Source: Gammaproteobacteria bacterium (GTDB lineage Bacteria > Pseudomonadota > Gammaproteobacteria > Steroidobacterales > Foliamicaceae). Taken from it: a stretch of DNA of 64,000 nucleotides. Where the stretch lies: positions 1,854,553 to 1,918,552 of the forward strand of contig OY762933.1 in the NCBI GenBank assembly GCA_963666765.1. Reading direction: 5' to 3'. The position numbers and the translations under genes were made by a program. The notes below the pieces were generated by a model. The model had not been told where the DNA came from. It made no database searches and saw only the letters and a program-made list of their open reading frames with translations. This document shows, piece by piece, positions 2-62,958 of this stretch; positions within the stretch are counted from its first letter, which is position 1; each line of letters opens with the position of its first letter.

Positions 2-550
2 CACCTGGTGGTCATGCTGATGACCCTGCTGCTGACGGTGGTGGTCGATCTCGTCACGGCCGTCGCGATCGGCCTCATCGTTGCCGGCATGAATCATGCC
101 CGGCAATTGAAGGGCCTGGAACTCGACAGCGTGGTTTCGGTGCCGGTGCTGGACCGGACGTTTTTCGCCGGCGAGGAAGGCATGGAGATCAGCGACCCGC
201 TGCAGGCGCGCGTGGGGATGGTAGCCCTGCGCGGCACCCTTACGGTGGCATCTTCACGCAATCTGGTCAGCGTGATCGGCGCCGACATCAAGGACCACGA
301 AGTCGTGATATTCGACTTTTCCGAAGCCCGGTTCCTCGACGACAGCGCCGCCATGGTAATCGAGCAGTTGCTCGACGTGGCCGGCGAAGCCGACACGAGC
401 GTGATTGTGGTGGGGCCGTCGGGCGGGGTCGCGGAGATGATCGATGCGCTGGACGTACTGCGGGGCGTGCCCGGGGACCAGGTGGTGGGCAGGCTGGACC
501 AGGCGCGCGGTATCGCGCGAAAACTCCTTGAGGAACAGCCCGCCTCTTAA
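2..550 (+). CDS. SulP-family anion transporter, C-terminal fragment with STAS domain (N-terminus outside window)
   Basis: The frame is open to the window edge. A terminal TM helix (LLLTVVVDLVTAVAIGLIVAG) is followed by a STAS-like module (ALRGTLTVASSRNL...HEVVIFDFSEARFLDDSAAMVIEQL). Confidence 0.7.
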   Translation, partial: HLVVMLMTLLLTVVVDLVTAVAIGLIVAGMNHARQLKGLELDSVVSVPVLDRTFFAGEEGMEISDPLQARVGMVALRGTLTVASSRNLVSVIGADIKDHEVVIFDFSEARFLDDSAAMVIEQLLDVAGEADTSVIVVGPSGGVAEMIDALDVLRGVPGDQVVGRLDQARGIARKLLEEQPAS

Positions 551-29451: not shown

Positions 29452-30327
29452 ATGGTCAACAGACGCACTTTCGTTACCGCCGCGGCCGGCGCGACCGGCT
29501 CATTGCTGGGGGCGCGGGCGCTTGAGGCCGCCGCACCCAAATCGGTCAGCCCGCCGGTAAGCCGGGTCGTCTCCGAGTTCCTCCATTTCGACGACCCGGT
29601 GGAGGAGTTTCGCGCGCAGATGCGCATGGAGCGCGACCTGGTCGAGGACCAGGGCACGACGCTGACCTGGTACCACTGGCTCGTATTCGTCATACCCGGG
29701 GGACGGCGCCCGGAACCCCTGATCCGCTACGAAGGAATCGAGTTCAGCTACTTCCGGCATCTCGGCGACCACAACTACCGCATCCATGCGCACAATGTTT
29801 CCTTCCCGCGCGACCTCAAGACCAACGCGTTCACGGATTCCGTGACCAATCCCATAACGGGCGAGCTTGTCGAGGTGCCCGTGACGCCGCTGCTAACCGA
29901 TCCGGGAACGATCGGGAGTCCCACCGGCTTTCGCAACCTGTCCGGCGACGGCTTTGTCCAGGCGCCCTACCGCAAGTTCCGGATCGAGAACGACCTGATC
30001 AAGATGGACCTGGTGCGCAGCGCCCCGCCCGACTGGCCTGCAACGCACATCGAGAATTCCTGCAACTGGGTGGAATTCGACCTGTTCGCGAACGAAACCA
30101 TCACTTCGTTACCCGCCCATTTCTGCGGACACTACGCATTCGAAAATCCCGCGTGGCTGAAGATGCCGGAAGGCATGGGCCACCTGGCGGGATTCTGGGA
30201 CGGCAAGAAAGTCAATTCCGCGTCCGAACTGCCGCGCGAGTTTCTCGACCGCATGGAGCGCGAATATCCGGAACTGCTCGAGCCACGCTGGGGCGAATTC
30301 GAGCGCCCGATCCCGTTTGATCTCTAG
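29452..30327 (+). CDS. Tat-signal protein, DUF1838-like family, paralogue B
   Basis: Leader MVNRRTFVTAAAGATGSLLGARA and family block FPRDLKTNAFTDSVTNPITGELVEVP. AAGGGAGAA lies upstream of the ATG. Confidence 0.7.
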   Translation: MVNRRTFVTAAAGATGSLLGARALEAAAPKSVSPPVSRVVSEFLHFDDPVEEFRAQMRMERDLVEDQGTTLTWYHWLVFVIPGGRRPEPLIRYEGIEFSYFRHLGDHNYRIHAHNVSFPRDLKTNAFTDSVTNPITGELVEVPVTPLLTDPGTIGSPTGFRNLSGDGFVQAPYRKFRIENDLIKMDLVRSAPPDWPATHIENSCNWVEFDLFANETITSLPAHFCGHYAFENPAWLKMPEGMGHLAGFWDGKKVNSASELPREFLDRMEREYPELLEPRWGEFERPIPFDL

Positions 30328-33833: not shown

Positions 33834-36167
33834 CTACAGTCCGTATGTCAGCGTCAGGCCCAGCGTCTGCTTGTCGGCGAAAATCGGCACGTACGACGTG
33901 CCAAAACCCGTAGCTATGAAGAACGCACTGGTCGCATATTCTTCGTCCAACAGGTTTCTCGACCAAAGCGCCGCGCTCCACGATCCGTTGCTGACCTGAA
34001 ACCGTGCATGCACCACCGTGCGGTCCGGCAGCCAGGCGAGATTCATCTCATCCATGTACTGCTTGGTCTGGTGAATCACGTCGCCGCGCAGAAACCAGTC
34101 CCAGCCCGTCGGCAACGCCCCGCTGAAGGTGGCCCCAACGTTGAGCTGAAACGGCGGCTGGCGCTGGATATCGTTGCCGCCGATCGACCCGTCGCTGGGA
34201 CAGGCGACGCCATCGCAGGCGCCCAGCGAACCGATACGGCCGCTCACGGCACCGCTCTCGTATTCCGCATTGGAAAACGAGACCGCATAGTCCAGGGTGA
34301 AGTTGTCCGTCGCGGCCCAGGCGCCGTCAAGTTCGATTCCCCAGATTTTTGCGCCGCCGGTATTGCCCACGATAGCGGGCGCCAGGACGCCCTGTGGGAG
34401 ATCCGTAGGCGAGGTGTTGATCTGCAGATTGGTCCAGTCCGTGTAATAAACGGCCACGTTGGCCAGCCAGCGGCCGTCCATCAGCGTATTCTTGCTGCCG
34501 ACTTCGAAAGTCCAGTTCTCGTCCGGTTCGAAGCTGCGCTGCGCTTCATCGAAGACCGTATTGTTGAACCCGCCGGACTTGGCGCCCTTGGCGAGACTGG
34601 CATAGACCATCCGGTCCTCGCTCATGCGGTAATCCACCGTAAAACGGGGCGTGAACGGCGACCAGCTGTCCTCGAATTTGGGGCTGTCTGCGAGCCTCGT
34701 ATTGGAATCCAGGAATTTGTCCTCGTCGGTGATTCGGGCTTCCGCTCCCACGCGCCAGAGGCCGTCAGAAGACTCCCAGCCGATACGGCCGAATATCGCG
34801 TCCGTATCCACAGTGGTCCGGGCCCGGGTAAGCGCCAGCGCGGCGATGCCGCTGATGCCGTCGTTCGGATCGACGTCGAAGGGCTCGGTGCCGTTCAAGG
34901 GCGCGAACGCAAAGTCGAACAAGTCGAAGTCCTTGATTTCCGATTGGAAGGCGCCCAGCGATGCGGACCACGAGCCCTGTTCGAAATCGATCCGGATTTC
35001 GTGGGACGTGTACTCGCTCGTTCCCGCCGGCGTAACGTTCACGTAGTTCACCGGCGAGGCGGGATTGAAAAAGTTGAACGAGCCAAGCGCCGGATCGCGA
35101 TCGCCGGCGCCGGCCGCGATCACCTCCGAATCCACGCTCCCGAACTGGTAGGCGATGCGCCAGTTCTCGTTAAGGTCGACCACCACGCCGGCGTGGATGA
35201 AGTCGGACTCCACATCCAGCAGATAGCCGCGAGGATCGGAAGTCGCCTTCGTTTCCGGCGGGCTGCCGCCCGGCAATGGCGAGAACGTGGTGGGCAGTTC
35301 GCCGCAATAGAAGCGATCCGCCGCCCCACCGAAGAAGGTCCGCGAACAGTTGGTATCACCCGGCGCCTCGATGCGAACGCTCCCCTTCGTTTCCTGGAAG
35401 CGCTCCACGCTGTAGTAATCCAGATCCACCGCTACCTGCTCCGTCGGGCGGAACTCGACGTTCAGGCCCAGCGTCAGGTTGTCCCAGCCGCCCAGGTTGC
35501 CAACTGTCCCGCGATCGCTGTAGCCCGCGGAATTGGGATGCTCGTTGGCCCAGGTGCCGTCGAACTCGCTGTCGCTCACGAGCAGGCGCAGGCCGAGCAC
35601 ATCGGCGATGATGGGCCCGCCGACCTCGCCGTAAAGGTCCAGGCGTTCATCCGTGCCTGCGGTGACCTGAACCGACCCGCTCAACTCCTCGCCCGGTCCT
35701 CCACTGACGTAATTGACGGCCCCCAGGAAGGCATTGCGCCCGAACAGCGCGCTTTGGGGCCCCTTCACCACCTCGATCCGCTCGAATCCGCCGACGCCAA
35801 GGTCCACCATGTACTGGCGCGGAAGATAGATTCCGTCCAGGTAGATCGACGTGGTGTGGTCCAGGTCCTGGATGCGCATCTGGGCGCCGCCGCGAATCAC
35901 CGCGACCCCGTAACCGCCGCCAAAATCTTCATAAGCAAAACCGGACGTCGCGTGGGCGACGTCCTCCAGTTCGCGCATGCTGCGGCGGGCGATCTCTTCG
36001 GCCGAGAACGCCGTGATCGCGAGCGGCACTTCCTGCAGCCGCTCCTCCGCCTTGCGCGCGGTCACGATGATCTCCTCGAAGACCTCCGCCTCGTCGCCGG
36101 TCTGGGCCGCCAGGGTTGTTGCAAGCAGGACCAGAGCAGCCCCCGTAAGTTTTTGTGTGCAAGACAT
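33834..36167 (-). CDS. TonB-dependent outer-membrane receptor (TBDR2)
   Basis: Signal peptide followed by FEEIIVTARKAEERLQEVPLAITAF, and FERIEVVKGPQSALFGR. The ATG at 36167 follows AGAGGG. Confidence 0.9.
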   Translation of the reverse strand: MSCTQKLTGAALVLLATTLAAQTGDEAEVFEEIIVTARKAEERLQEVPLAITAFSAEEIARRSMRELEDVAHATSGFAYEDFGGGYGVAVIRGGAQMRIQDLDHTTSIYLDGIYLPRQYMVDLGVGGFERIEVVKGPQSALFGRNAFLGAVNYVSGGPGEELSGSVQVTAGTDERLDLYGEVGGPIIADVLGLRLLVSDSEFDGTWANEHPNSAGYSDRGTVGNLGGWDNLTLGLNVEFRPTEQVAVDLDYYSVERFQETKGSVRIEAPGDTNCSRTFFGGAADRFYCGELPTTFSPLPGGSPPETKATSDPRGYLLDVESDFIHAGVVVDLNENWRIAYQFGSVDSEVIAAGAGDRDPALGSFNFFNPASPVNYVNVTPAGTSEYTSHEIRIDFEQGSWSASLGAFQSEIKDFDLFDFAFAPLNGTEPFDVDPNDGISGIAALALTRARTTVDTDAIFGRIGWESSDGLWRVGAEARITDEDKFLDSNTRLADSPKFEDSWSPFTPRFTVDYRMSEDRMVYASLAKGAKSGGFNNTVFDEAQRSFEPDENWTFEVGSKNTLMDGRWLANVAVYYTDWTNLQINTSPTDLPQGVLAPAIVGNTGGAKIWGIELDGAWAATDNFTLDYAVSFSNAEYESGAVSGRIGSLGACDGVACPSDGSIGGNDIQRQPPFQLNVGATFSGALPTGWDWFLRGDVIHQTKQYMDEMNLAWLPDRTVVHARFQVSNGSWSAALWSRNLLDEEYATSAFFIATGFGTSYVPIFADKQTLGLTLTYGL

Positions 36168-36319
36168 ACAACCCTCTCTAAGAACAGCAGCCACCTGTCC
36201 GAAGCTAACGGAACCTGCACGGCGACGCAAATCCGCATACACAGCGCGCATAGCGGCATGCCTGGGCGTGATCGCGAACCGGGAGCGCCGGCACCCTTCG
36301 CTCGCTGGCAGCTGCCGGG

Positions 36320-38220: not shown

Positions 38221-40623
38221 CTAAAAGCTCGCGGCCAGCGTCAGGCCGTACGTGCGCGGCTCGGGCAACGTCAGCTGGTAACCCAGCGTACCGGTCAGGA
38301 AACTGCCCGTGGTGCGCTGCGATGAAAGCACGGAGTCGTCATCGGTCACGTTTTCGACCCACAAGGTAACGCTGTAGCGATCGTTGCGCCAGCCACCGCG
38401 AAGATTGTGCAGCACCGCCTCCTCTGTCTTGGCAAGGTTGATCACCCAGGTCCAGGTTGACGACTGATACCAGGCATCCCAGCGGGCGAACCACTCGCCG
38501 TCGCCAGTCCAGATGTTCTCGGCGGGCATATTGAAGTCCAGAGCAAATGTCGCGGCATGATCCGGCGAGCGGGCCACCTCCAGGCCACTTGCATCAGCGC
38601 TGCCATAGACCCGTCTGTTCTGGTTATCCTGATAAACCTTGATTTCGCTGCTGTTGTGGTTGTAGGACGCGGTGCCGCGCCAGTTCTCGCTGAACGCCCA
38701 GCTTGCCGCCAGCTCAAACCCCCAGATGTCGGTGCTGCCGTTACTGTCGTAATCGACCTGTGCGCCGAGCCGGTCCGACCCCTGAATGAAACGGCCGTCA
38801 CCGTTGCTGTCCACGTCTCTGGTGAAGCCCCTGAAGCGCTGGTTTCTCCATTGCATGACATAGACCGCCCCGTTGACGTAGCCCCTGCCGCCGGCGAGGG
38901 TGTGCTTGCCGCCGAACTCGAAGGAGTCAAGCTCGGCCTGCAGGACCTCGTAGCCGATCCCTTCCGACGCGTTGAACGCCGGGAACGCGACCGTGGGCTC
39001 CAACTGGATGACCTCGGGATTGAAGCCGCCCGGATTGTTGCCCTTCGAATAGCTTGCATAAAGCAGGGTGTTGTCAGTCAACTTGTAGTCAACGATGACC
39101 CGCGGCAGCTCCGCCTCGAAATCGGCGGCCAGGTCGACCTCGGCCCCGCCGAAGGGCTGCGCCGTACCGATGGGATCGTTCGGATCGAGCGGCATGGCCT
39201 CCTGTATCACGGAGGAGGCGTTCGCAAGCTCTTCCTCTTCATAACGGAATTCAAGGCTGACTGTCAGCTGCTCGGTAATGTCATAAGCCACGCTGGCGAA
39301 TATCGCCTGGTTTTCGACGTTCTGGGCAATGACTGGAGTAGGAGAGAAAAGGCCGCGGCCGCCTCTTCCGCTGATCGCGCCGATGGTCGGGTCGAAGCAG
39401 AAGGGTCCACCGCCAGGGCAGGGGAAGGCGGTTAATCCTTCTTTGCCGTACGTCAGGTCGAGATAGTAGGCGCCCACCATCCAGCGCAGCCTTTTGTCCT
39501 GGGGCGAGGTCAGGCGCACTTCCTGGGACCACGACTCGTCCTTCCATCCCACGTAGACCTGAAGCTCGTCCGTGAGGAGTTCGCGCAATTCCGCCGTGTC
39601 CTCGCGGTACTGACCCGTCACTGAGCTCAACGTGTAGCCGCCGATGTCCCAGTCAATATTCAGGCTGGTGAGTTCGGTTGTGCGATCAAGTCCCATGTTG
39701 TCCTTGTAGACCGTATCCTCCACAGGCGACGTGTCGATGGCGATGCCGTTGGAGATCAGGCCTCGGCTCAGCGTTCCGCAGTAGTAATTGCTGGTCCCCA
39801 TAACACCGTTGGTGGTGAACGGCCCGCAATTGTTGTTCTCGCCCTTGACCAGAAACTGAACCGCCAGCCCGTCGTCGTCCTCGGTTCGCACATGACGCAG
39901 CTTGATGGAGAGGTCTTCCGTCGGCGTGGCGTAGAGAGTCACGCTGCCGGCGTTCGTCTGCTGGGAGCCCAGATCACCGCCGGTGGGGTGCTCGTTTTTC
40001 CAGGCCCCGTCGTAAGTGTAAAACCGGCCGGACGCCCGGAAGTACAGTCGGTCTTCAACGATCGGACCCTCGGCGCTGACCCACACGTCCGCGCGGCCGC
40101 TGTCGCCCAGGATCAGGTTGATGTCGCCGTTGAAGTCATCGCCCGGCGTCCTGCTGATGAAATTGATCGCACCGCCGAAGGTGGCCCGGCCGAAAAAGGC
40201 GCTTTGCGGGCCTTTCACGACCTCCACGCGCTCGATGTCGTTCATGGAAAGCCACTGGCTGGTTCCCGGCAGATAGACGCCGTCCACGAAGGCGGATGAT
40301 GTCTGCGAGCTGCGCACGCTCGAAGGGGGGTCGATGGCGCGAAACCGGATCGCCGGATTGTTGCGGTTTCCGGTGTGGTTGCTCATGTGCACGCCCGGAA
40401 CGAACTGAAGCATGTCTTCGACATCGGTGATCTGCTGCTCCCTGAGCTGCTCGGAGCTGAAAGCCGCGACGCTCAGCGGGATGTCCTGAATCGACTCGTC
40501 GCGCTTGCGCGCTGTCACCACGATTTCTTCAAGCGCAAGATCTTGCGCCATGACTGCCATATCGGCAGCGAACAGACTCATTACGGCGGCGCCTATCAAC
40601 AGGCGATTGTGCAGACTACGCAT
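38221..40623 (-). CDS. TonB-dependent outer-membrane receptor (TBDR3)
   Basis: Signal peptide followed by LEEIVVTARKRDESIQDIPLSVAAF, and IERVEVVKGPQSAFFGR. It ends in an aromatic residue (..LAASF). The ATG at 40623 follows GGGAGGGG. Confidence 0.9.
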   Translation of the reverse strand: MRSLHNRLLIGAAVMSLFAADMAVMAQDLALEEIVVTARKRDESIQDIPLSVAAFSSEQLREQQITDVEDMLQFVPGVHMSNHTGNRNNPAIRFRAIDPPSSVRSSQTSSAFVDGVYLPGTSQWLSMNDIERVEVVKGPQSAFFGRATFGGAINFISRTPGDDFNGDINLILGDSGRADVWVSAEGPIVEDRLYFRASGRFYTYDGAWKNEHPTGGDLGSQQTNAGSVTLYATPTEDLSIKLRHVRTEDDDGLAVQFLVKGENNNCGPFTTNGVMGTSNYYCGTLSRGLISNGIAIDTSPVEDTVYKDNMGLDRTTELTSLNIDWDIGGYTLSSVTGQYREDTAELRELLTDELQVYVGWKDESWSQEVRLTSPQDKRLRWMVGAYYLDLTYGKEGLTAFPCPGGGPFCFDPTIGAISGRGGRGLFSPTPVIAQNVENQAIFASVAYDITEQLTVSLEFRYEEEELANASSVIQEAMPLDPNDPIGTAQPFGGAEVDLAADFEAELPRVIVDYKLTDNTLLYASYSKGNNPGGFNPEVIQLEPTVAFPAFNASEGIGYEVLQAELDSFEFGGKHTLAGGRGYVNGAVYVMQWRNQRFRGFTRDVDSNGDGRFIQGSDRLGAQVDYDSNGSTDIWGFELAASWAFSENWRGTASYNHNSSEIKVYQDNQNRRVYGSADASGLEVARSPDHAATFALDFNMPAENIWTGDGEWFARWDAWYQSSTWTWVINLAKTEEAVLHNLRGGWRNDRYSVTLWVENVTDDDSVLSSQRTTGSFLTGTLGYQLTLPEPRTYGLTLAASF

Positions 40624-40691
40624 GGTGTCCCCTCCCAACTAGTCTTGATGATGCTTGTTCAGCGGCCAATGCCGCGGACCAAGCCTCACTA

Positions 40692-42907: not shown

Positions 42908-43753
42908 CTAGCCTGCCAGCGCGCCCGCGGGGTCCTCGTAGATTTCCGGGTGCCGCGTCCTGATGAGTTCCTGCAGCCGGACCGGCATGGAATCGAACGA
43001 CGATACCTTGCGTCCGAAGCCGCGGGAAACGTAGTCGCCGGGCCTGTCGCCCATGCCCATCCAGGGCAGGTAGCTCAGGATATCGTTGAAGTGCCAGGTG
43101 GCGGGCGCATTCAGGACCTGGGGATTGGCCACGTCCTCAAGCGAGCCGTGATAGGTGCTCCAGTCGTTGCCGCGAAATGGCCGGCCGGCCTCAGGCGTCT
43201 CAGGTTCCATGCGGAATATGGCGTCGTCCCGGACCCAGACGTCGTCACCCTCGATGACGGCGGGGCCGAGAGGATGAATGCGAATACTCCTGAACCCTTC
43301 CCCGGCCGGCCGCTCCTCCGGAGACTCATCGATGCTGCGCACTTGCGTAGCTGGCGTCGCGGGGAAATAGCTGACTTCGACCTCCTGGCCCGTAAACGGG
43401 TTCTTGAACGTTTCCAGGAATTCGCCGGTTTCCAGATCAGTGTAATAGACCATGCTGATGGCCGTCGTTTCGTATGCTCCCTGGTCATTGAAATCCCGCG
43501 TCTTGAGAACTGCGCCCACATAAACGTTCCACAGCGGCGTGGAGATCTTGTCGACCACGGCCATCCTCAGCAGTTGCGCCCACCAGAAAACCAGACTGTC
43601 GTCCATCGTGTGCGCCAGCTTGCGGGTAATCATGAGCGTTTGGTGCGGATCGGATGGATCCAGATCCAGCAATTCCGCCCGCGCCGATGGCGCTCTCACC
43701 AGCGGCGCGGCGGCGGCAGCTCCAATAAGACCCAGTGCCGTTCTGCGTTTCAT
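42908..43753 (-). CDS. Tat-signal protein, DUF1838-like family, paralogue E
   Basis: The ATG at 43753 follows GGGAGAGAAG. Leader MKRRTALGLIGAAAAAPLVRA and family block YYTDLETGEFLETFKNPFTGQEVEVS. Confidence 0.7.
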   Translation of the reverse strand: MKRRTALGLIGAAAAAPLVRAPSARAELLDLDPSDPHQTLMITRKLAHTMDDSLVFWWAQLLRMAVVDKISTPLWNVYVGAVLKTRDFNDQGAYETTAISMVYYTDLETGEFLETFKNPFTGQEVEVSYFPATPATQVRSIDESPEERPAGEGFRSIRIHPLGPAVIEGDDVWVRDDAIFRMEPETPEAGRPFRGNDWSTYHGSLEDVANPQVLNAPATWHFNDILSYLPWMGMGDRPGDYVSRGFGRKVSSFDSMPVRLQELIRTRHPEIYEDPAGALAG

Positions 43754-43879
43754 TTCTTCTCTCCCGATTTGCCGATGGCCAGAGTCGATGAACACGTGAG
43801 CATCACACAATCACCCCCAGGCCTTCGTGCATCCTATACCGGATTATGCGTCCTGACTTCAGGAGCAAACGGCTGGAGG

Positions 43880-60049: not shown

Positions 60050-60082
60050 TGGCCGGATTGCAGCGTGACACGGCCTGGATTA

Positions 60083-60727
60083 ATGATTACATTCGCCGAA
60101 GAGACTCTGACGCTTCTTCTCGACGACAAGACCGGCGCCTTCCTGCCGATCGGCAAGTACGCGCTGGAGCACGCCCTGGTGGGAGGCATCCTGATGGACC
60201 TGGCCTTCGCCAATCGCATCGACACCGATCCGGAGCAAATGATCGTCATCAATGCGACCCCCACGGAGAACCCCATGCTGGACCAGGTGCTCAAACGCAT
60301 CAGCGGCAGCGATCAAACCAGGGACACCGCGGCCTGGCTGGAGATCATTTCCGAGGAGCAGGGAGAGTCCATTCAGGAACAGGCCATCGAAAGCCTGATC
60401 GCGCGGGGCGTGCTGGAGCGCAAGGAGGAGAAGTTCCTCTGGGTGTTCCGTTCCCGGCGCTATCCGATGATGGACGGCGAGTTGCAGCGGGAGGCCCGGC
60501 AGCGGGTGGTAGGGGTGCTTTTCTCGGGCGACATTCCCGATCCCCGCGACATCGCCCTGATCTGCATAGCCGACGCCTGCGGCCTGCTCAAGACCGTCTT
60601 CGGCGAGAAGGAACTCGACGAGGTCTCTCCGCGCCTCGATCAACTGCGCAAGATGGACCTGATCGGCCGGGAACTGATCACCCAGTTGTCCGTCTGGCGC
60701 TGGTCCGGCACCATCACCCGCATCTAG
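60083..60727 (+). CDS. GPP34 (GOLPH3/Vps74-like) family protein
   Basis: The N-terminus MITFAEETLTLLLDDKTGAF and the helical pattern resemble bacterial GPP34 proteins, from memory. The start is the ATG at 60083 or the GTG at 60065. The TAG stop lies inside the neighbouring repeat terminus. Confidence 0.55.
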   Translation: MITFAEETLTLLLDDKTGAFLPIGKYALEHALVGGILMDLAFANRIDTDPEQMIVINATPTENPMLDQVLKRISGSDQTRDTAAWLEIISEEQGESIQEQAIESLIARGVLERKEEKFLWVFRSRRYPMMDGELQREARQRVVGVLFSGDIPDPRDIALICIADACGLLKTVFGEKELDEVSPRLDQLRKMDLIGRELITQLSVWRWSGTITRI

Positions 60728-61000: not shown

Positions 61001-61594
61001 TCAGTTCCAGGGAAGCCCGGCAAAAGCTTCCCGGCACTCCCGGTAGCGGAAGCAGCGCACCAGGTGATCGTTGATCAGGCCGCAGGCCTGCAGGTGGGAA
61101 TACACGATGGTAGAGCCCACGAACTTGAATCCCCGGGCCTTGAGATCGGCTGAAAGTCGGTCGGAAAGCTCCGAAGTGGCCGGCAGTTCATTCTGGCTGC
61201 GCCATCGGTTGACGACCGGCCTACCGTCCACAAATCCCCAGATATAGCGCGCGAAGGAGCCGAATTCCTCGCGGACCTCCAGGAAGCGGGAGGCGTTATT
61301 GACGGCGGCCGTGATCTTCTGCCGGTTACGGATGATGCCGGCGTCCGCGACCAGGGCCTCGATTTCCGCTTCGCCGAACCGCGCGACGCGAACCGGATCA
61401 AAGCCGGCGAAAGCCCGCCGATAGCCTTCCCGCTTGTGCAGCACGGTCCTCCACGACAGACCCGCCTGCGCGGATTCAAGGATCAGAAATTCGAAATGGA
61501 CGGCGTCATCGAGAACGGGCAGTCCCCATTCTTCATCGTGATAGGCCTGGTATTCGTCGCTCACGCCGAGCGACCACGGACACCGTTGGCGCAT
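61001..61594 (-). CDS. tag: DNA-3-methyladenine glycosylase I
   Basis: CPW...YHDEEWGLPVLDD, and the C-terminal zinc-ligand context HLVRCF. Confidence 0.9.
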   Translation of the reverse strand: MRQRCPWSLGVSDEYQAYHDEEWGLPVLDDAVHFEFLILESAQAGLSWRTVLHKREGYRRAFAGFDPVRVARFGEAEIEALVADAGIIRNRQKITAAVNNASRFLEVREEFGSFARYIWGFVDGRPVVNRWRSQNELPATSELSDRLSADLKARGFKFVGSTIVYSHLQACGLINDHLVRCFRYRECREAFAGLPWN

Positions 61595-61645
61595 TCAGAC
61601 GCTACGCCCCCGCCTGGCTGCCGGCGCATTCATGCCGGCCGTCCT

Positions 61646-61689
61646 GGACGATGCAGCCGGCGAGCCCGCGAGCCCGCCGGCTGTCGTCC
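61646..61689 (-). terminator. GC-rich hairpin downstream of the small peptide gene
   Basis: ggacga(tg)cagccggc pairs with gccggctgtcgtcc: a 14-bp stem with a 2-nt bulge and a 14-nt loop. There is no clear U-tract. Confidence 0.35.
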
Positions 61690-61716
61690 TGAATCAGCTA
61701 CCGAAGTAGCGGCAAT

Positions 61717-61953
61717 TTATTCTTCTTCGCCGTCTTCGTCGCCGCAGCTGCCTTCGCCGCAGCTACCGTCTTCGTCGCCGTCTTCGTCGCCGCAGCTGCC
61801 TTCGTCGTCGCCATCATCACCATGGCCGTCCATCAGTGACGGAAGCTCGGGTGCATGGGAGCCGTCAACGGCTGCAGCAGCCGGGCCGGCAACGCCGGCG
61901 GCGAGAGCTGCGCTAAGGGCAAGGGCGAGTAGTTTGCGTTCAGGACTGGTCAT
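61717..61953 (-). CDS. Small secreted acidic peptide with three (E/D)GSCG repeats
   Basis: The ATG at 61953 lies 7 nt after GGAGG. The signal peptide is MTSPERKLLALALSAALAAGVAGPAAAA. The mature part is VDGSHAPELPSLMDGHGDDGDDEGSCGDEDGDEDGSCGEGSCGDEDGEEE. The DNA shows the corresponding tandem repeats. Confidence 0.65.
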   Translation of the reverse strand: MTSPERKLLALALSAALAAGVAGPAAAAVDGSHAPELPSLMDGHGDDGDDEGSCGDEDGDEDGSCGEGSCGDEDGEEE

Positions 61954-62154
61954 AAAAATGCCTCCAGTTTGTAGCTTTGTTCCCCTGTTCAGGGACACTT
62001 AAGGCCGCATGCCCGTAAACGAACACCCGGCCGATGCGGGAATGATTCCTCCCGCTACGGAAGTCTAGCACACAGTTACTAAGCTACCGGCAACCAGACT
62101 TCTGCGGTACGCTTCGTCCGGAATGGCGCTCCGGATTCAGATGGGCTCAGGGAA

Positions 62155-62958
62155 ATGTCAGAAAAATACGCCGTAATGGGATACCCGATCGAACACAGCC
62201 GTTCGCCGGAAATACATGCCCACTTCGCCTCGCAACTGGGTTTGCAATTGGAGTACCGGCGCATTGAGGTGCGCCCGGGTTCCCTGTTGTCGGCGGTCGA
62301 AAGCTTCAGGACGGACGGCGGTCTGGGCTGCAACATCACCGTGCCGCTGAAGGAGGAGGCCGCGGAGTTGAGCGACGAGCTCGGTCCCGAAGCCAGGCAG
62401 GCCGGGGCGGTGAATACGCTGACCGCAAGGCCGGGTGGCCGATTAAGGGGGGACAACACCGACGGGCTCGGCCTGGTCCGCCAGTTGCGCACTAACCTGA
62501 GCGTAGACCTCGAAGACTACAGGGTGCTGATGATCGGCGCCGGCGGCGCCGTTCGTGGCGTGCTGCCGGCACTGCTGGCCGCGGGCGTCGGAGAGATCGT
62601 CATTGCCAACCGCACCCGGAGTCGTGCACTGGACCTGGCCCGGCGCTTTGCTTCTTTCGGAGAAATCCACGTAGTCGATCCCGGCAACAGGGAACTGCCG
62701 GGGGCGGAACTTGTAATCAATGCAAGTTCAGCGGGATTGGCCGGTCTGCCGCCCGCGCTGTCCCCGGCCGCCGCGGAGGGTGCATTGTGCCTGGACCTGG
62801 CTTACGGCCGCGCGGCCGAGCCGTTTCTGGCCTGGGCGCAAGAGGGCGCCGCCCGCGCTGCCCACGATGGTTGGGGCATGCTGGTCGAACAGGCGGCCGA
62901 GAGCTTTTCCATCTGGCACGGCAGGCGTCCGGACACAAGAGATCTGCTCGGCATGTGA
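62155..62958 (+). CDS. aroE: Shikimate dehydrogenase
   Basis: YAVMGYPIEHSRSPEIH, NITVPLKE, NTDG and MIGAGGAVRGV. Confidence 0.9.
   Translation: MSEKYAVMGYPIEHSRSPEIHAHFASQLGLQLEYRRIEVRPGSLLSAVESFRTDGGLGCNITVPLKEEAAELSDELGPEARQAGAVNTLTARPGGRLRGDNTDGLGLVRQLRTNLSVDLEDYRVLMIGAGGAVRGVLPALLAAGVGEIVIANRTRSRALDLARRFASFGEIHVVDPGNRELPGAELVINASSAGLAGLPPALSPAAAEGALCLDLAYGRAAEPFLAWAQEGAARAAHDGWGMLVEQAAESFSIWHGRRPDTRDLLGM

What the first reader, a model, noticed from the sequence alone, without database searches (positions are those of the whole stretch)
61717..61953. Orphan small secreted peptide with three (E/D)GSCG repeats in a His/Asp/Glu-rich tail
This is a 78-aa ORF with a strong RBS (GGAGG, 7 nt before the ATG) and a Sec-type leader (…ALAAGVAGPAAAA). 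The roughly 50-aa mature part is VDGSHAPELPSLMDGHGDDGDDEGSCGDEDGDEDGSCGEGSCGDEDGEEE. It has three Cys, each within GSCG, plus two His and more than 20 acidic residues. The DNA shows matching tandem repeats (gtcgccgcagctgccttcg…).

The design recalls signal-peptide-bearing, Cys-repeat precursors of MNIO/DUF692-modified metal-binding RiPPs (bufferin or HvfA-type 'EGKCG' repeats, from memory). However, there is no DUF692, DUF2063 or other maturase gene in the window; the flanking genes are tag and aroE. It could be an unmodified periplasmic metal buffer, a precursor modified in trans, or a new class.
Basis: partly seen in the sequence, partly recalled or inferred. Interest (0 to 1): 0.6.

Follow-up and report, generated by a model that had tools for sequence, protein, structure and literature searches.

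The report
Orphan HvfA-type metal-binding peptide gene
A small, real and conserved gene encodes a secreted, very acidic ~50-residue peptide; its cysteine motif makes it a stripped-down relative of known copper-binding peptides (HvfA/fontiphorin/gonophorin family), but it sits alone, away from the enzymes that normally modify such peptides.

Summary
Window 61953..61717 (minus strand) holds a 78-aa ORF with GGAGG 7 nt upstream, a Sec-type leader and three (E/D)GSCG motifs.

It is a real gene. Homologues occur in at least 23 protein clusters and 8 species-level genomes, always beside aroE. The EGSCGEGSCG core is invariant and changes are mostly synonymous.

NCBIfam's HvfA-family model hits just under its cutoff (18.2 vs 19.5 bits). 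In 23 other species, acidic EGSCG-repeat peptides of the same build lie 3-33 bp upstream of an MNIO (DUF692) and, in 22 of them, its PME1 (DUF2063) partner. In gonophorin (NgoA), all seven Cys, three of them in (Q/E)GSCG motifs, are converted to 5-thiooxazoles.

This copy is minimal, hyper-acidic and stand-alone. It has its own promoter-like box and flanking hairpins. The 64-kb window and ±10 kb in relatives contain no MNIO or PME1.

Whether a maturase elsewhere in the genome modifies it could not be tested. I put trans modification at ~0.5 and an unmodified metal buffer at ~0.33. It is a new variant of a known kind, not a new class.

The parts
61717..61953 (-). Coding sequence of the 78-aa precursor peptide, including the stop codon at 61717-61719.
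   Evidence: Searches give the ORF. It is conserved in 23 protein clusters. The same gene was called on ERZ25084381:contig_3. In the first 45 codons, the closer relatives L034, L035, L017, L037 and L043 (about 82-87% nt identity over the aligned flanks) show 5-9 synonymous against 0-1 nonsynonymous codon differences.
61870..61953 (-). Sec-type signal peptide, residues 1-28. It has an n-region MTSPERK, an uncharged h-region L8-A28 and an A-A-A|V cleavage motif.
   Evidence: Read directly from the sequence. AlphaFold2 models only residues 3-20 as a helix. Residues 1-14 are invariant in all 24 aligned homologues. SignalP was not available.
61819..61869 (-). N-terminal part of the mature peptide, VDGSHAPELPSLMDGHG (residues 29-45; two His, one Met). 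It occupies the position of the leader motif in MNIO-linked relatives.
   Evidence: It is nearly invariant within the close clade. It scores like shuffled sequence against an HMM of the 'F.A.(D/E)L..GY' leader of MNIO-linked precursors: 0.1 bits, against 29-53 bits for 23 of the 25 training (type A) sequences (FonA 17.1, L033 11.8) and 3.5-15 for six of the seven ECF-linked ones.
61720..61818 (-). Hyper-acidic Asp/Glu/Gly core region, residues 46-78, carrying the three Cys motifs.
   Evidence: Composition. The spacer length varies by whole codons among relatives. The region is modelled as coil with pLDDT 56-63.
61741..61770 (-). Tandem double motif DGSCG-EGSCG (residues 62-71; Cys65, Cys70). 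This is the family-defining core.
   Evidence: In the 24-sequence alignment, G63, C65 and G66-G71 are invariant and D59 and S64 nearly so; the first residue of the motif is E or D. The double motif is unchanged in L029 and L013, whose flanks are only 73-76% identical at nt level, with 2-3 synonymous codon changes. The NCBIfam NF050137 match covers residues 51-72. FonBC needs two repeats to act, according to the fontiphorin preprint, bioRxiv 10.1101/2025.11.18.689057.
61789..61803 (-). Extra single EGSCG motif (residues 51-55; Cys54). It is a recent gain.
   Evidence: It is present only in the window, L010 (OX639965.1) and the identical L047 contig. All other relatives have two Cys. It lies within the 48-nt tandem duplication.
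61727..61830 (.). Tandem DNA repeat underlying the duplicated motif and acidic spacer.
   Evidence: Tandem Repeats Finder reports period 48, 2.2 copies, 82% matches and score 138.
61961..61965 (-). Shine-Dalgarno sequence GGAGG, 7 nt before the ATG.
   Evidence: The core GGAG is invariant across the eleven aligned sequences (window plus 10 clade loci); the full CTGGAGG is kept in nine of them.
62060..62073 (-). Invariant box GTGTGCTAGACTTC, about 120 nt upstream of the ATG. I read it as an extended -10 promoter (TGn-TAGACT). That reading is an inference.
   Evidence: It is identical in all clade loci, including those at 73% nt identity. It is absent from loci of the other two architectures. 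The strict two-hexamer scan found no -35/-10 pair.
61954..62059 (-). Putative 5' untranslated leader of about 105 nt with three conserved hairpins.
   Evidence: Alignment and RNAalifold give 34 pairs, 2 with compensatory changes, at -23.7 kcal/mol. No Rfam family matches.
61646..61710 (-). Two conserved hairpins directly after the stop codon: GCUAC-UUCG-GUAGC and a long G+C-rich stem. They probably act as a terminator or mRNA-stabilising 3' end separating the gene from tag.
   Evidence: The fold has MFE -68 kcal/mol and z -2.9. Both stems are kept with compensatory changes in L029, L046 and L013. There is no U-tract in the window, so the terminator scan found none.
61001..61594 (-). tag (DNA-3-methyladenine glycosylase I), the downstream neighbour. 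It is context only and not part of the system.
   Evidence: Pfam Adenine_glyco is marked on the identical gene. tag is missing in L046 and L037 while the peptide gene is kept.
62155..62958 (+). aroE (shikimate dehydrogenase), the divergent upstream neighbour. It is a conserved synteny anchor and context only.

Best explanation
The gene encodes a minimal, hyper-acidic precursor of the HvfA/FonA/NgoA family. This family is called captophorins or Buf_EGKCG/oxazolins, and its members are Sec-exported peptides with E-G-x-C-G repeats. Here Ser replaces the usual Lys before Cys.

Shown:
- It is a real, conserved gene under purifying selection.
- It has its own promoter-like box and flanking RNA hairpins.
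- It is related to peptides that in other species lie directly upstream of the modifying enzyme pair.
- No such enzymes are encoded within 64 kb.

Inferred mechanism:
1. The peptide is made from a constitutive sigma-70 extended -10 promoter.
2. Before export, an MNIO-PME1 pair encoded elsewhere in the chromosome converts the Cys of the EGSCGEGSCG double motif, and possibly the third Cys, into 5-thiooxazoles.
3. Sec exports the peptide and signal peptidase I removes the leader.
4. The disordered ~50-residue polyanion then binds Cu(I) in the periplasm as a copper buffer.

Family assignment by homology: about 0.9. Modification in trans: about 0.5. The second figure is what the confidence value refers to.
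For: Family and homology:
- NF050137 (HvfA family) is the only relevant model hit, at 18.2 bits. It matches 24 of 25 aligned relatives and reference precursors.
- A clade profile searched against 1.84e9 representatives gives 14 hits. Two are the clade itself and 12 are Fon-like EG[KS]CG precursors.
- 23 GTDB species have an acidic EGSCG-repeat peptide 3-33 bp upstream of an MNIO that is 53-66% identical to FonB. PME1 follows in 22 of them.

Chemistry, from the literature:
- All 7 Cys of NgoA are modified, including three in (Q/E)GSCG (PMC13097082 supplement, Fig. S18 and Table S6).
- FonBC tolerates Ala, Arg or Thr at motif position 3, needs Gly or Ala at position 5, and needs two repeats. The invariant core here is exactly one double repeat with Gly at position 5.
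- Precursor genes not linked to MNIO genes are reported as a sizeable fraction for Buf1 and Buf2 bufferins, and stand-alone precursor genes appear among the major organisations charted for all three precursor families, Buf_EGKCG/oxazolins included (PMC12452194).

Selection and expression:
- The core stays (nearly) invariant, with 2-3 synonymous codon changes, while the neighbouring leader accumulates about 20 nonsynonymous changes in 45 codons.
- L013, a deep clade member, has expanded to 2 x EGSCGEGSCGEGSCG. That pattern fits a substrate still under the family's constraints.
- The ribosome-binding site (GGAG core) and promoter box are invariant and the hairpins are conserved.
Against: - No MNIO or PME1 occurs in the 64-kb window, nor within ±10 kb in 15 loci of the clade.
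- None of the 120 MNIOs closest to the most similar cis-linked system lies on a contig with the length of any known clade chromosome. That test is weak, because only the best 120 of 8000 hits were listed.
- The genome scan found only one EGSCGEGSC locus in each of the four complete clade chromosomes.
- The region that carries the conserved 'F.A.(D/E)L..GY' leader in cis-linked precursors is unrecognisable here. It scores 0.1 bits, the same as shuffles.
- The HvfA model score is below its curated cutoff.
- No modification, expression or metal binding was or could be measured.
Confidence: 0.5

Rival explanations
1. The peptide is a maturase-less relic that has been put to a new use. In this reading the lineage has no MNIO-PME1. 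The peptide is exported unmodified and acts as a periplasmic polyanionic metal buffer, using Cys thiolates (or a Cys65-Cys70 disulfide switch), two His, one Met and 21 carboxylates to bind Cu, Zn, Cd or Ca.
For: - No maturase is present in the window or in the flanks of any clade locus.
- None was seen among the nearest 120 MNIO homologues.
- The leader motif of the cis-linked relatives is lost.
- The repeat number is reduced to the minimum, and the Asp/Gly spacer expands and contracts freely.
- The stand-alone position next to aroE/tag is old, because it is shared with Woeseiaceae-type loci.
- A private, invariant promoter box has replaced the ECF sigma/anti-sigma pair seen in those loci.
- Ca-binding EF-hand fusions to EGKCG domains exist in the family (PMC12452194).
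Against: - The whole EGSCGEGSCG decapeptide, including Gly, Ser and Glu, is (nearly) invariant across genus/family-level divergence, not just the Cys. That looks more like an enzyme recognition site than a loose thiolate site.
- L013 has re-expanded the canonical triple repeats.
- Absence of a maturase from the genome was not shown.
Confidence: 0.33
2. The peptide is the substrate of a different, still unknown modifying enzyme, or the founder of a new peptide class unrelated in function to captophorins.
For: The leader region DGSHAPELPSLMDGHG is clade-specific and nearly invariant. It does not match the known leader motif. The peptide falls below the curated family cutoff.
Against: - No conserved candidate enzyme gene accompanies the peptide. 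The neighbours are housekeeping genes, and tag and GPP34 can be lost without losing the peptide.
- The core motif is identical to that of cis-linked MNIO substrates.
Confidence: 0.07
3. This is not a functional gene. It would be a chance ORF in G+C-rich repetitive DNA, a decaying pseudogene, or the real gene would be the 188-aa ORF on the opposite strand (61436..62002, plus).
For: The opposite-strand frame is open in the window and in most relatives. The region is low-complexity and tandemly repeated.
Against: - The sense frame has an invariant ATG and GGAG ribosome-binding core, a canonical signal peptide and homology to characterised precursors.
- All indels are whole codons.
- The antisense frame is interrupted in L046, and in L013 all three antisense frames are open, which marks this as a composition effect.
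- The antisense ORF would have to start inside tag and run through the conserved hairpins.
Confidence: 0.03

Closest known systems
FonA / fontiphorin (Fontimonas thermophila), with FonB (MNIO) and FonC (PME1); ACS Chem Biol 2026, PMC13097082
   Same: Both have an N-terminal Sec signal peptide followed by E-G-x-C-G pentamers in tandem doubles. The MNIOs next to the acidic EGSCG relatives are 53-66% identical to FonB. The invariant core here equals FonBC's minimal two-repeat substrate, with substitutions of a tolerated kind: position 3 accepts Ala, Arg or Thr, and position 5 is Gly.
   Different: Here Ser replaces Lys before Cys. The peptide is strongly acidic rather than basic, has 3 rather than 7 Cys, and is 78 rather than 108 aa long. 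The 'F.A.DL..GYMV' leader is not recognisable. No fonB/fonC-like genes lie nearby.
NgoA / gonophorin (Neisseria gonorrhoeae)
   Same: NgoA contains three (Q/E)GSCG motifs besides EGKCG, and all 7 Cys were found modified to 5-thiooxazole. The Ser-Cys-Gly context is therefore an experimentally proven MNIO target.
   Different: NgoA is basic and 112 aa long. It is encoded in a doxX-ngoA-ngoB-ngoC cluster.
HvfA / oxazolin (Haemophilus influenzae); NCBIfam NF050137 and NF050188; the 'Buf_EGKCG/oxazolin' signature of PMC12452194
   Same: It has the same overall build and a best-model hit. It is a Cu(I)-binding periplasmic peptide, and stand-alone precursor genes are charted as one of this family's genetic organisations.
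   Different: The window peptide scores 18.2 bits against a 19.5-bit cutoff. HvfA has six EGKCG motifs in three doubles and lies in the hvf operon.
Acidic EGSCG-repeat precursors next to MNIO-PME1 in Wenzhouxiangella, Lysobacterales, Methylonatrum and uncultured sponge-type Gammaproteobacteria (loci L007-L045, found here)
   Same: They share the EGSCGEGSCG core, Asp/Glu-rich spacers and a Sec leader. They are the nearest relatives outside the clade in the exhaustive profile search.
   Different: They are 84-144 aa long with 4-14 Cys, keep the leader motif, and are followed within 3-33 bp by MNIO and PME1.
Stand-alone EGSCG precursors behind an ECF sigma factor and a DUF3379 anti-sigma factor in Woeseiaceae-type MAGs (L023, L025, L027, L032, L038, L039, L041)
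   Same: The chromosomal position is the same (gor-like, aroE ... peptide, tag). No MNIO lies within reach.
   Different: Those loci carry hemB, an ECF sigma factor (PRK12517 type) and a DUF3379 anti-sigma factor directly upstream. They partly keep the leader motif. They are longer and less acidic.
Bufferins Buf1 (DUF2282) and Buf2, and methanobactins
   Same: All are MNIO-modified, Cys-derived heterocycle copper binders. The bufferins also use Sec signal peptides.
   Different: There is no DUF2282 or other Pfam hit. Methanobactin precursors have leader peptides rather than Sec signals, and a different MNIO subgroup.

Membership tests
HvfA/FonA/NgoA family (captophorins; Buf_EGKCG/oxazolin) | N-terminal Sec signal peptide instead of a classical RiPP leader | tested here: met
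   The n-region, h-region and AxA cleavage motif can be read from the sequence. AF2 models a helix at residues 3-20 only. Residues 1-14 are invariant. SignalP was not run.
HvfA/FonA/NgoA family (captophorins; Buf_EGKCG/oxazolin) | Repeated E-G-x-C-G pentamers with at least one tandem double | tested here: met
   The motifs are EGSCG (51-55) and DGSCG-EGSCG (62-71). x is Ser rather than Lys, as in three motifs of NgoA and in the 23 cis-linked loci.
HvfA/FonA/NgoA family (captophorins; Buf_EGKCG/oxazolin) | Score at or above the curated cutoff of NCBIfam NF050137 (KCGExKCG_twice) | tested here: not met
   The score is 18.2 bits against a 19.5-bit cutoff, E 0.0015. The model expects two double repeats and the peptide has one and a half. 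Of 25 aligned relatives and reference precursors, 24 match at E <= 1.
HvfA/FonA/NgoA family (captophorins; Buf_EGKCG/oxazolin) | Sequence relatedness to precursors encoded beside MNIO-PME1 | tested here: met
   A clade profile retrieves only Fon-like precursors. tblastn-confirmed relatives in 23 species lie 3-33 bp upstream of MNIO, with PME1 following in 22. Caveat: the similarity rests mainly on the signal peptide and the low-complexity core.
HvfA/FonA/NgoA family (captophorins; Buf_EGKCG/oxazolin) | Gene cluster with MNIO (PF05114) and PME1 (PF09836/DUF2063), often with DoxX | tested here: not met
   There are no tblastn hits in the 64-kb window, nor within ±10 kb in 15 clade loci. No such domain appears in the precomputed Pfam marks of neighbours. 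The literature accepts unlinked precursors.
HvfA/FonA/NgoA family (captophorins; Buf_EGKCG/oxazolin) | An MNIO-PME1 pair somewhere in the same genome | not testable with these tools
An indirect test matched contig lengths among the best 120 of 8000 MNIO homologues. It was negative but has low power.
HvfA/FonA/NgoA family (captophorins; Buf_EGKCG/oxazolin) | Conserved leader motif between signal peptide and core (F.A.(D/E)L..GY in Fon-like members) | tested here: not met
   An HMM of 25 cis-linked leaders gives the window 0.1 bits and other clade members -8.4 to 0.6. Shuffles range from -13.5 to 7.3, and six of the seven ECF-linked stand-alone peptides score 3.5-15.2 (the seventh, L038, -1.2). 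Single Ala changes in FonA's leader were all tolerated, so the motif may not be essential.
HvfA/FonA/NgoA family (captophorins; Buf_EGKCG/oxazolin) | Cys converted to 5-thiooxazole (-4 Da per Cys, absorbance at about 305 nm) and Cu(I) binding | not testable with these tools
   This needs mass spectrometry and spectroscopy of the peptide.
Bufferin Buf1 (DUF2282) | Pfam PF10048 domain with four conserved Cys | tested here: not met
   There is no Pfam hit at E <= 10, and the peptide has only three Cys.
Known structured RNA upstream (riboswitch or leader) | Match to an Rfam family in the conserved 5' untranslated region | tested here: not met
   The 5' region (61954-62073) gives no match at all. 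The few weak matches over 61500-62250 (12-17 bits, far below gathering scores) lie on the 3' hairpins and the coding repeats.

The most novel reading that the evidence does not exclude
A whole lineage of uncultured, ~3-Mb, 65-68% G+C Gammaproteobacteria has lost the MNIO-PME1 maturase. The MAG names suggest sponge or other host association, which I did not verify. The lineage has nonetheless kept, under purifying selection and behind a private invariant promoter, a minimal captophorin core fused to a new His/Met-containing N-terminus and a poly-Asp tract. If so, this is a RiPP precursor that has become a functional unmodified periplasmic metal-binding peptide, or the substrate of an unknown enzyme.
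Probability: 0.3. Interest if true: 0.6.

Novelty: new variant of a known kind. Interest (0 to 1): 0.38.

Why it matters
Captophorins (bufferins, oxazolin, fontiphorin, gonophorin) are a recently recognised and very widespread class of copper-handling peptides. Unlinked precursor genes have been counted in surveys, but I found no study of them in the papers I read.

This case provides a clean, evolutionarily tractable example. The same chromosomal slot (aroE ... tag) holds an ECF-sigma-controlled precursor in Woeseiaceae-type genomes. In another lineage it holds a stripped-down, hyper-acidic, promoter-autonomous version.

It also shows that an acidic Ser-Cys subfamily exists alongside the basic Lys-Cys type. 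In 23 species that subfamily carries the maturase in cis.

If the clade has a maturase elsewhere, the peptide is a natural minimal substrate with one double repeat, useful for enzymology. If it has none, it shows how a RiPP precursor can survive the loss of its enzyme.

Either way, the finding does not open a new category.

Tried and rejected
1. Finding a trans-encoded MNIO.
- I took the MNIO of the most similar cis-linked system (L009) and searched 5.8e9 proteins. I then looked for hits on contigs with the exact lengths of known clade chromosomes (3114442, 2756080, 2949337, 3055817, 2831561, 1175134, 1000361, 673544, 648295). None appeared among the 120 hits listed of 8000.
- Three hits lie on contigs of deceptively similar size (P0051 3141529, P0044 2831195, P0042 2967632), so I followed them up. 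All have the L009-type synteny (AAA, VWA_CoxE ... precursor, MNIO, PME1).
- Two of them have 60-61.5% G+C against 65-68% for the clade, so they belong to other organisms. Tetranucleotide correlation did not separate lineages well enough to be used further.

2. A STAS-domain ORF at the window start (8-550) resembled the STAS gene downstream of an MNIO cluster in L048, which raised the possibility that a cluster lies just outside the window. It is instead the C-terminal domain of a SulP transporter cut by the window edge, and is unrelated (blastp E 0.003 over 49 aa). Its exact product is not on record.

3. By eye, APELPSLMDGHG looked homologous to the 'L.SGYMVADSHG' leader. An HMM test did not support this, so I do not claim it.

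4. Rfam and the consensus promoter and terminator scans found nothing. The promoter and terminator readings therefore rest on conservation only.

5. The ratio of synonymous to nonsynonymous changes cannot by itself choose between the two strands, because the wobble positions of the sense and antisense frames coincide.

6. P0160, a hyper-acidic DGSCGEDGSCG variant, might have shown such a peptide next to an MNIO. Its contig ends 50 bp after the gene.

7. A full-text search for 'EGSCG' returned only unrelated human growth-hormone papers.
Full report
**What is there**

On the minus strand, ATG 61953 to TAA 61717 encodes 78 aa, with GGAGG 7 nt upstream. The product has three parts:
- a textbook Sec leader: MTSPERK, a 21-residue uncharged stretch, then AAA|V;
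- a His/Met-containing stretch, VDGSHAPELPSLMDGHG;
- a 33-residue Asp/Glu/Gly tract carrying EGSCG (51-55) and DGSCG-EGSCG (62-71).

The predicted 50-residue mature peptide has 21 acidic residues, no basic ones, 12 Gly, 3 Cys, 2 His and 1 Met. The DNA is tandemly repeated, with period 48, 2.2 copies and 82% matches. AlphaFold2 with 24 homologues models only the signal-peptide helix; the rest is coil at pLDDT 51-63. Nothing else in the window carries such a motif in a small secreted ORF.

**It is a real gene**

A search of 5.8e9 proteins gave 23 clusters (E down to 3e-31), all 68-86 aa and all from uncultured Gammaproteobacteria. In the alignment, the first 14 residues, H44-G45 and most of the (E/D)GSCGEGSCG core (G63, C65-G71) are invariant. 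The acidic spacer varies in length by whole codons.

The window is 93-97% identical at nt level over the aligned flanks to OX639965.1, a 3.11-Mb MAG chromosome. Relatives extend down to about 73% identity.

Across the first 45 codons, the relatives L034, L035, L017, L037 and L043 (about 82-87% identity) differ by 5-9 synonymous against 0-1 nonsynonymous codons. In the most distant relatives the leader has about 20 nonsynonymous changes, while the ten core codons show 2-3 synonymous changes and at most the E/D exchange.

The opposite-strand ORF is open in most relatives only because its wobble positions coincide with those of the sense frame. It is broken in L046.

**Its own expression signals**

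An invariant GTGTGCTAGACTTC box sits about 120 nt upstream of the ATG in every clade member and nowhere else in the loci fetched. I read it as an extended -10 element, TGn-TAGACT. It is followed by a leader of about 105 nt with three conserved hairpins and a ribosome-binding site whose GGAG core is invariant (CTGGAGG in nine of the eleven sequences).

Two hairpins follow the stop codon and are kept with compensatory changes. No Rfam family, consensus promoter or canonical terminator was found, so these readings are inferences from conservation. tag is absent in L046 and L037 while the peptide gene stays. The peptide is therefore not functionally tied to tag.

**What family it belongs to**

NCBIfam's 'HvfA family oxazolone/thioamide-modified RiPP metallophore' domain model, NF050137, is the only meaningful hit. 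It scores 18.2 bits against a 19.5-bit cutoff. Pfam finds nothing.

Scanning one genome per GTDB species with the peptide's two most conserved stretches gave 39 loci. tblastn with FonB, HvfB and NgoB (MNIO) and FonC, HvfC and NgoC (PME1), whose sequences I took from the supplement of PMC13097082, sorts 38 of them into three architectures. The 39th, L044 from a Myxococcota MAG, is basic and has no MNIO within reach, so I left it unclassified.
- **Type A, 23 species.** These include Wenzhouxiangella, Lysobacterales, Methylonatrum kenyense and several uncultured Gammaproteobacteria. An acidic EGSCG-repeat peptide is followed within 3-33 bp by an MNIO 53-66% identical to FonB, and then by PME1 in 22 of them.
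- **Type B, 7 species.** These are Woeseiaceae-type MAGs with the order gor-like, aroE, hemB, ECF sigma factor (PRK12517 type), DUF3379 anti-sigma factor, EGSCG peptide, tag. No MNIO lies within reach.
- **Type C, 8 species plus the ENA and JGI contigs, including this window.** The order is gor-like, aroE, peptide, tag, with no MNIO or PME1 in 64 kb or within ±10 kb.

Types B and C occupy the same chromosomal slot, so the unlinked position is old.

An exhaustive profile search of 1.84e9 representatives found only 14 hits. Two are the clade itself and 12 are Fon-like EG[KS]CG precursors. NF050137 matches 24 of the 25 aligned peptides.

**What is known about the family**

These points come from the papers read:
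- EGKCG-repeat peptides with Sec signals (HvfA/oxazolin, FonA/fontiphorin, NgoA/gonophorin) are modified in the cytoplasm by an MNIO-PME1 heterodimer, and they bind copper.
- The modification is now assigned as Cys to 5-thiooxazole.
- NgoA contains three (Q/E)GSCG motifs, and all seven of its Cys were found modified. The Ser-Cys-Gly context is therefore a proven target.
- FonBC needs two repeats, tolerates Ala, Arg or Thr at position 3, and requires Gly or Ala at position 5.
- Precursor genes not associated with MNIO genes are reported as a sizeable fraction for the Buf1 and Buf2 bufferins, and stand-alone precursor genes are charted among the major organisations of all three precursor families. 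Some are genuine single-gene units.

**Mechanism and its uncertainty**

The best-supported reading is a minimal captophorin-type precursor that is modified in trans, exported by Sec, cleaved after Ala28, and then acts as a periplasmic Cu(I) buffer. Three observations favour continued enzyme recognition:
- the whole decapeptide is (nearly) invariant, not only the Cys;
- the core is exactly the minimal two-repeat substrate;
- L013 has re-expanded canonical triple repeats.

Against it stand these points:
- no maturase was seen anywhere I could look;
- the leader motif conserved in type A (F.A.(D/E)L..GY) is statistically undetectable here, at 0.1 bits like shuffles, while type B partly retains it;
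- the repeat number is at the minimum;
- the ECF regulator pair has been replaced by a private promoter.

My attempt to find a trans MNIO was negative but weak, since it matched contig lengths among only the best 120 of 8000 homologues. The three look-alike hits belong to other organisms. I therefore put trans modification at about 0.5, an unmodified metal buffer at about 0.33, another enzyme at about 0.07 and a non-gene at about 0.03.

**Novelty**

This is not a new class. It is a divergent, sub-threshold, hyper-acidic Ser-Cys variant of a known family, in an unlinked but anciently conserved position. The third EGSCG is a very recent 48-nt duplication found only in the window, in OX639965.1 and in an identical ENA contig.

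Noticed in passing
window 61927-62073 (minus strand): The first 9 codons (ATG ACC AGT CCT GAA CGC AAA CTA CTC) are almost invariant at nucleotide level even in relatives with 73% overall identity. They use codons that are rare for a 65% G+C genome. Together with the conserved 105-nt leader and its three hairpins, this suggests RNA-level control of translation. No Rfam family matches.
   Followed up: partly
L023, L025, L027, L032, L038, L039, L041 (about 8.5-10 kb in each locus): In Woeseiaceae-type MAGs the EGSCG peptide lies 40-100 bp downstream of an ECF sigma factor (NCBIfam PRK12517 type, 200 bits) and a DUF3379 anti-sigma factor, in the same aroE...tag slot. A conserved GTAATAAA-N-GGGTCATCTCGTAT element precedes the sigma gene. 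DUF3379 is not mentioned in the MNIO landscape paper I read (PMC12452194).
   Followed up: partly
L013 8345-9661 (OZ220471.1): A DDE transposase (PF01609) is inserted between aroE and the peptide gene. The promoter box and the peptide, which here has six EGSCG motifs, are intact.
   Followed up: partly
L048, L049, L051 (genes upstream of the precursor); L009, L011, L019: The cis-linked clusters of the L009 group share a conserved upstream block: AAA ATPase, VWA_CoxE, RimB-like peptidase, 7TM transglutaminase and ATP-grasp. This block lies directly before the precursor-MNIO-PME1 genes. In L052 and L050 the last three genes are missing. Whether the ATP-grasp/transglutaminase set acts on the precursor is unknown.
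   Followed up: no
P0160 / L050 1057-1416: A 119-aa relative has (DG)n and (GDD)n tracts and a single DGSCGEDGSCG double motif. It is an independent case of extreme acidification with only two Cys. Its contig is too short to show whether an MNIO follows.
   Followed up: partly
window 60065-60727 (+): A GPP34 (Golgi phosphoprotein 3 family, PF05719) homologue lies between tag and the Sua5/YciO/YrdC-family gene (PF01300). It is conserved across the clade at 77-97% identity. This is an unusual family for a gammaproteobacterium.
   Followed up: no
window 29452-30327 (+) and 42908-43810 (-): The window contains two DUF1838 paralogues. The second lies in a run of minus-strand genes that includes two 805-aa ORFs (33834-36251 and 38221-40638). 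I did not annotate them further.
   Followed up: no
window 8-550 (+): The ORF at the left edge is the C-terminal STAS domain of a SulP-type transporter, truncated by the window start. The ORF list makes it look like a complete 180-aa gene, which it is not.
   Followed up: yes
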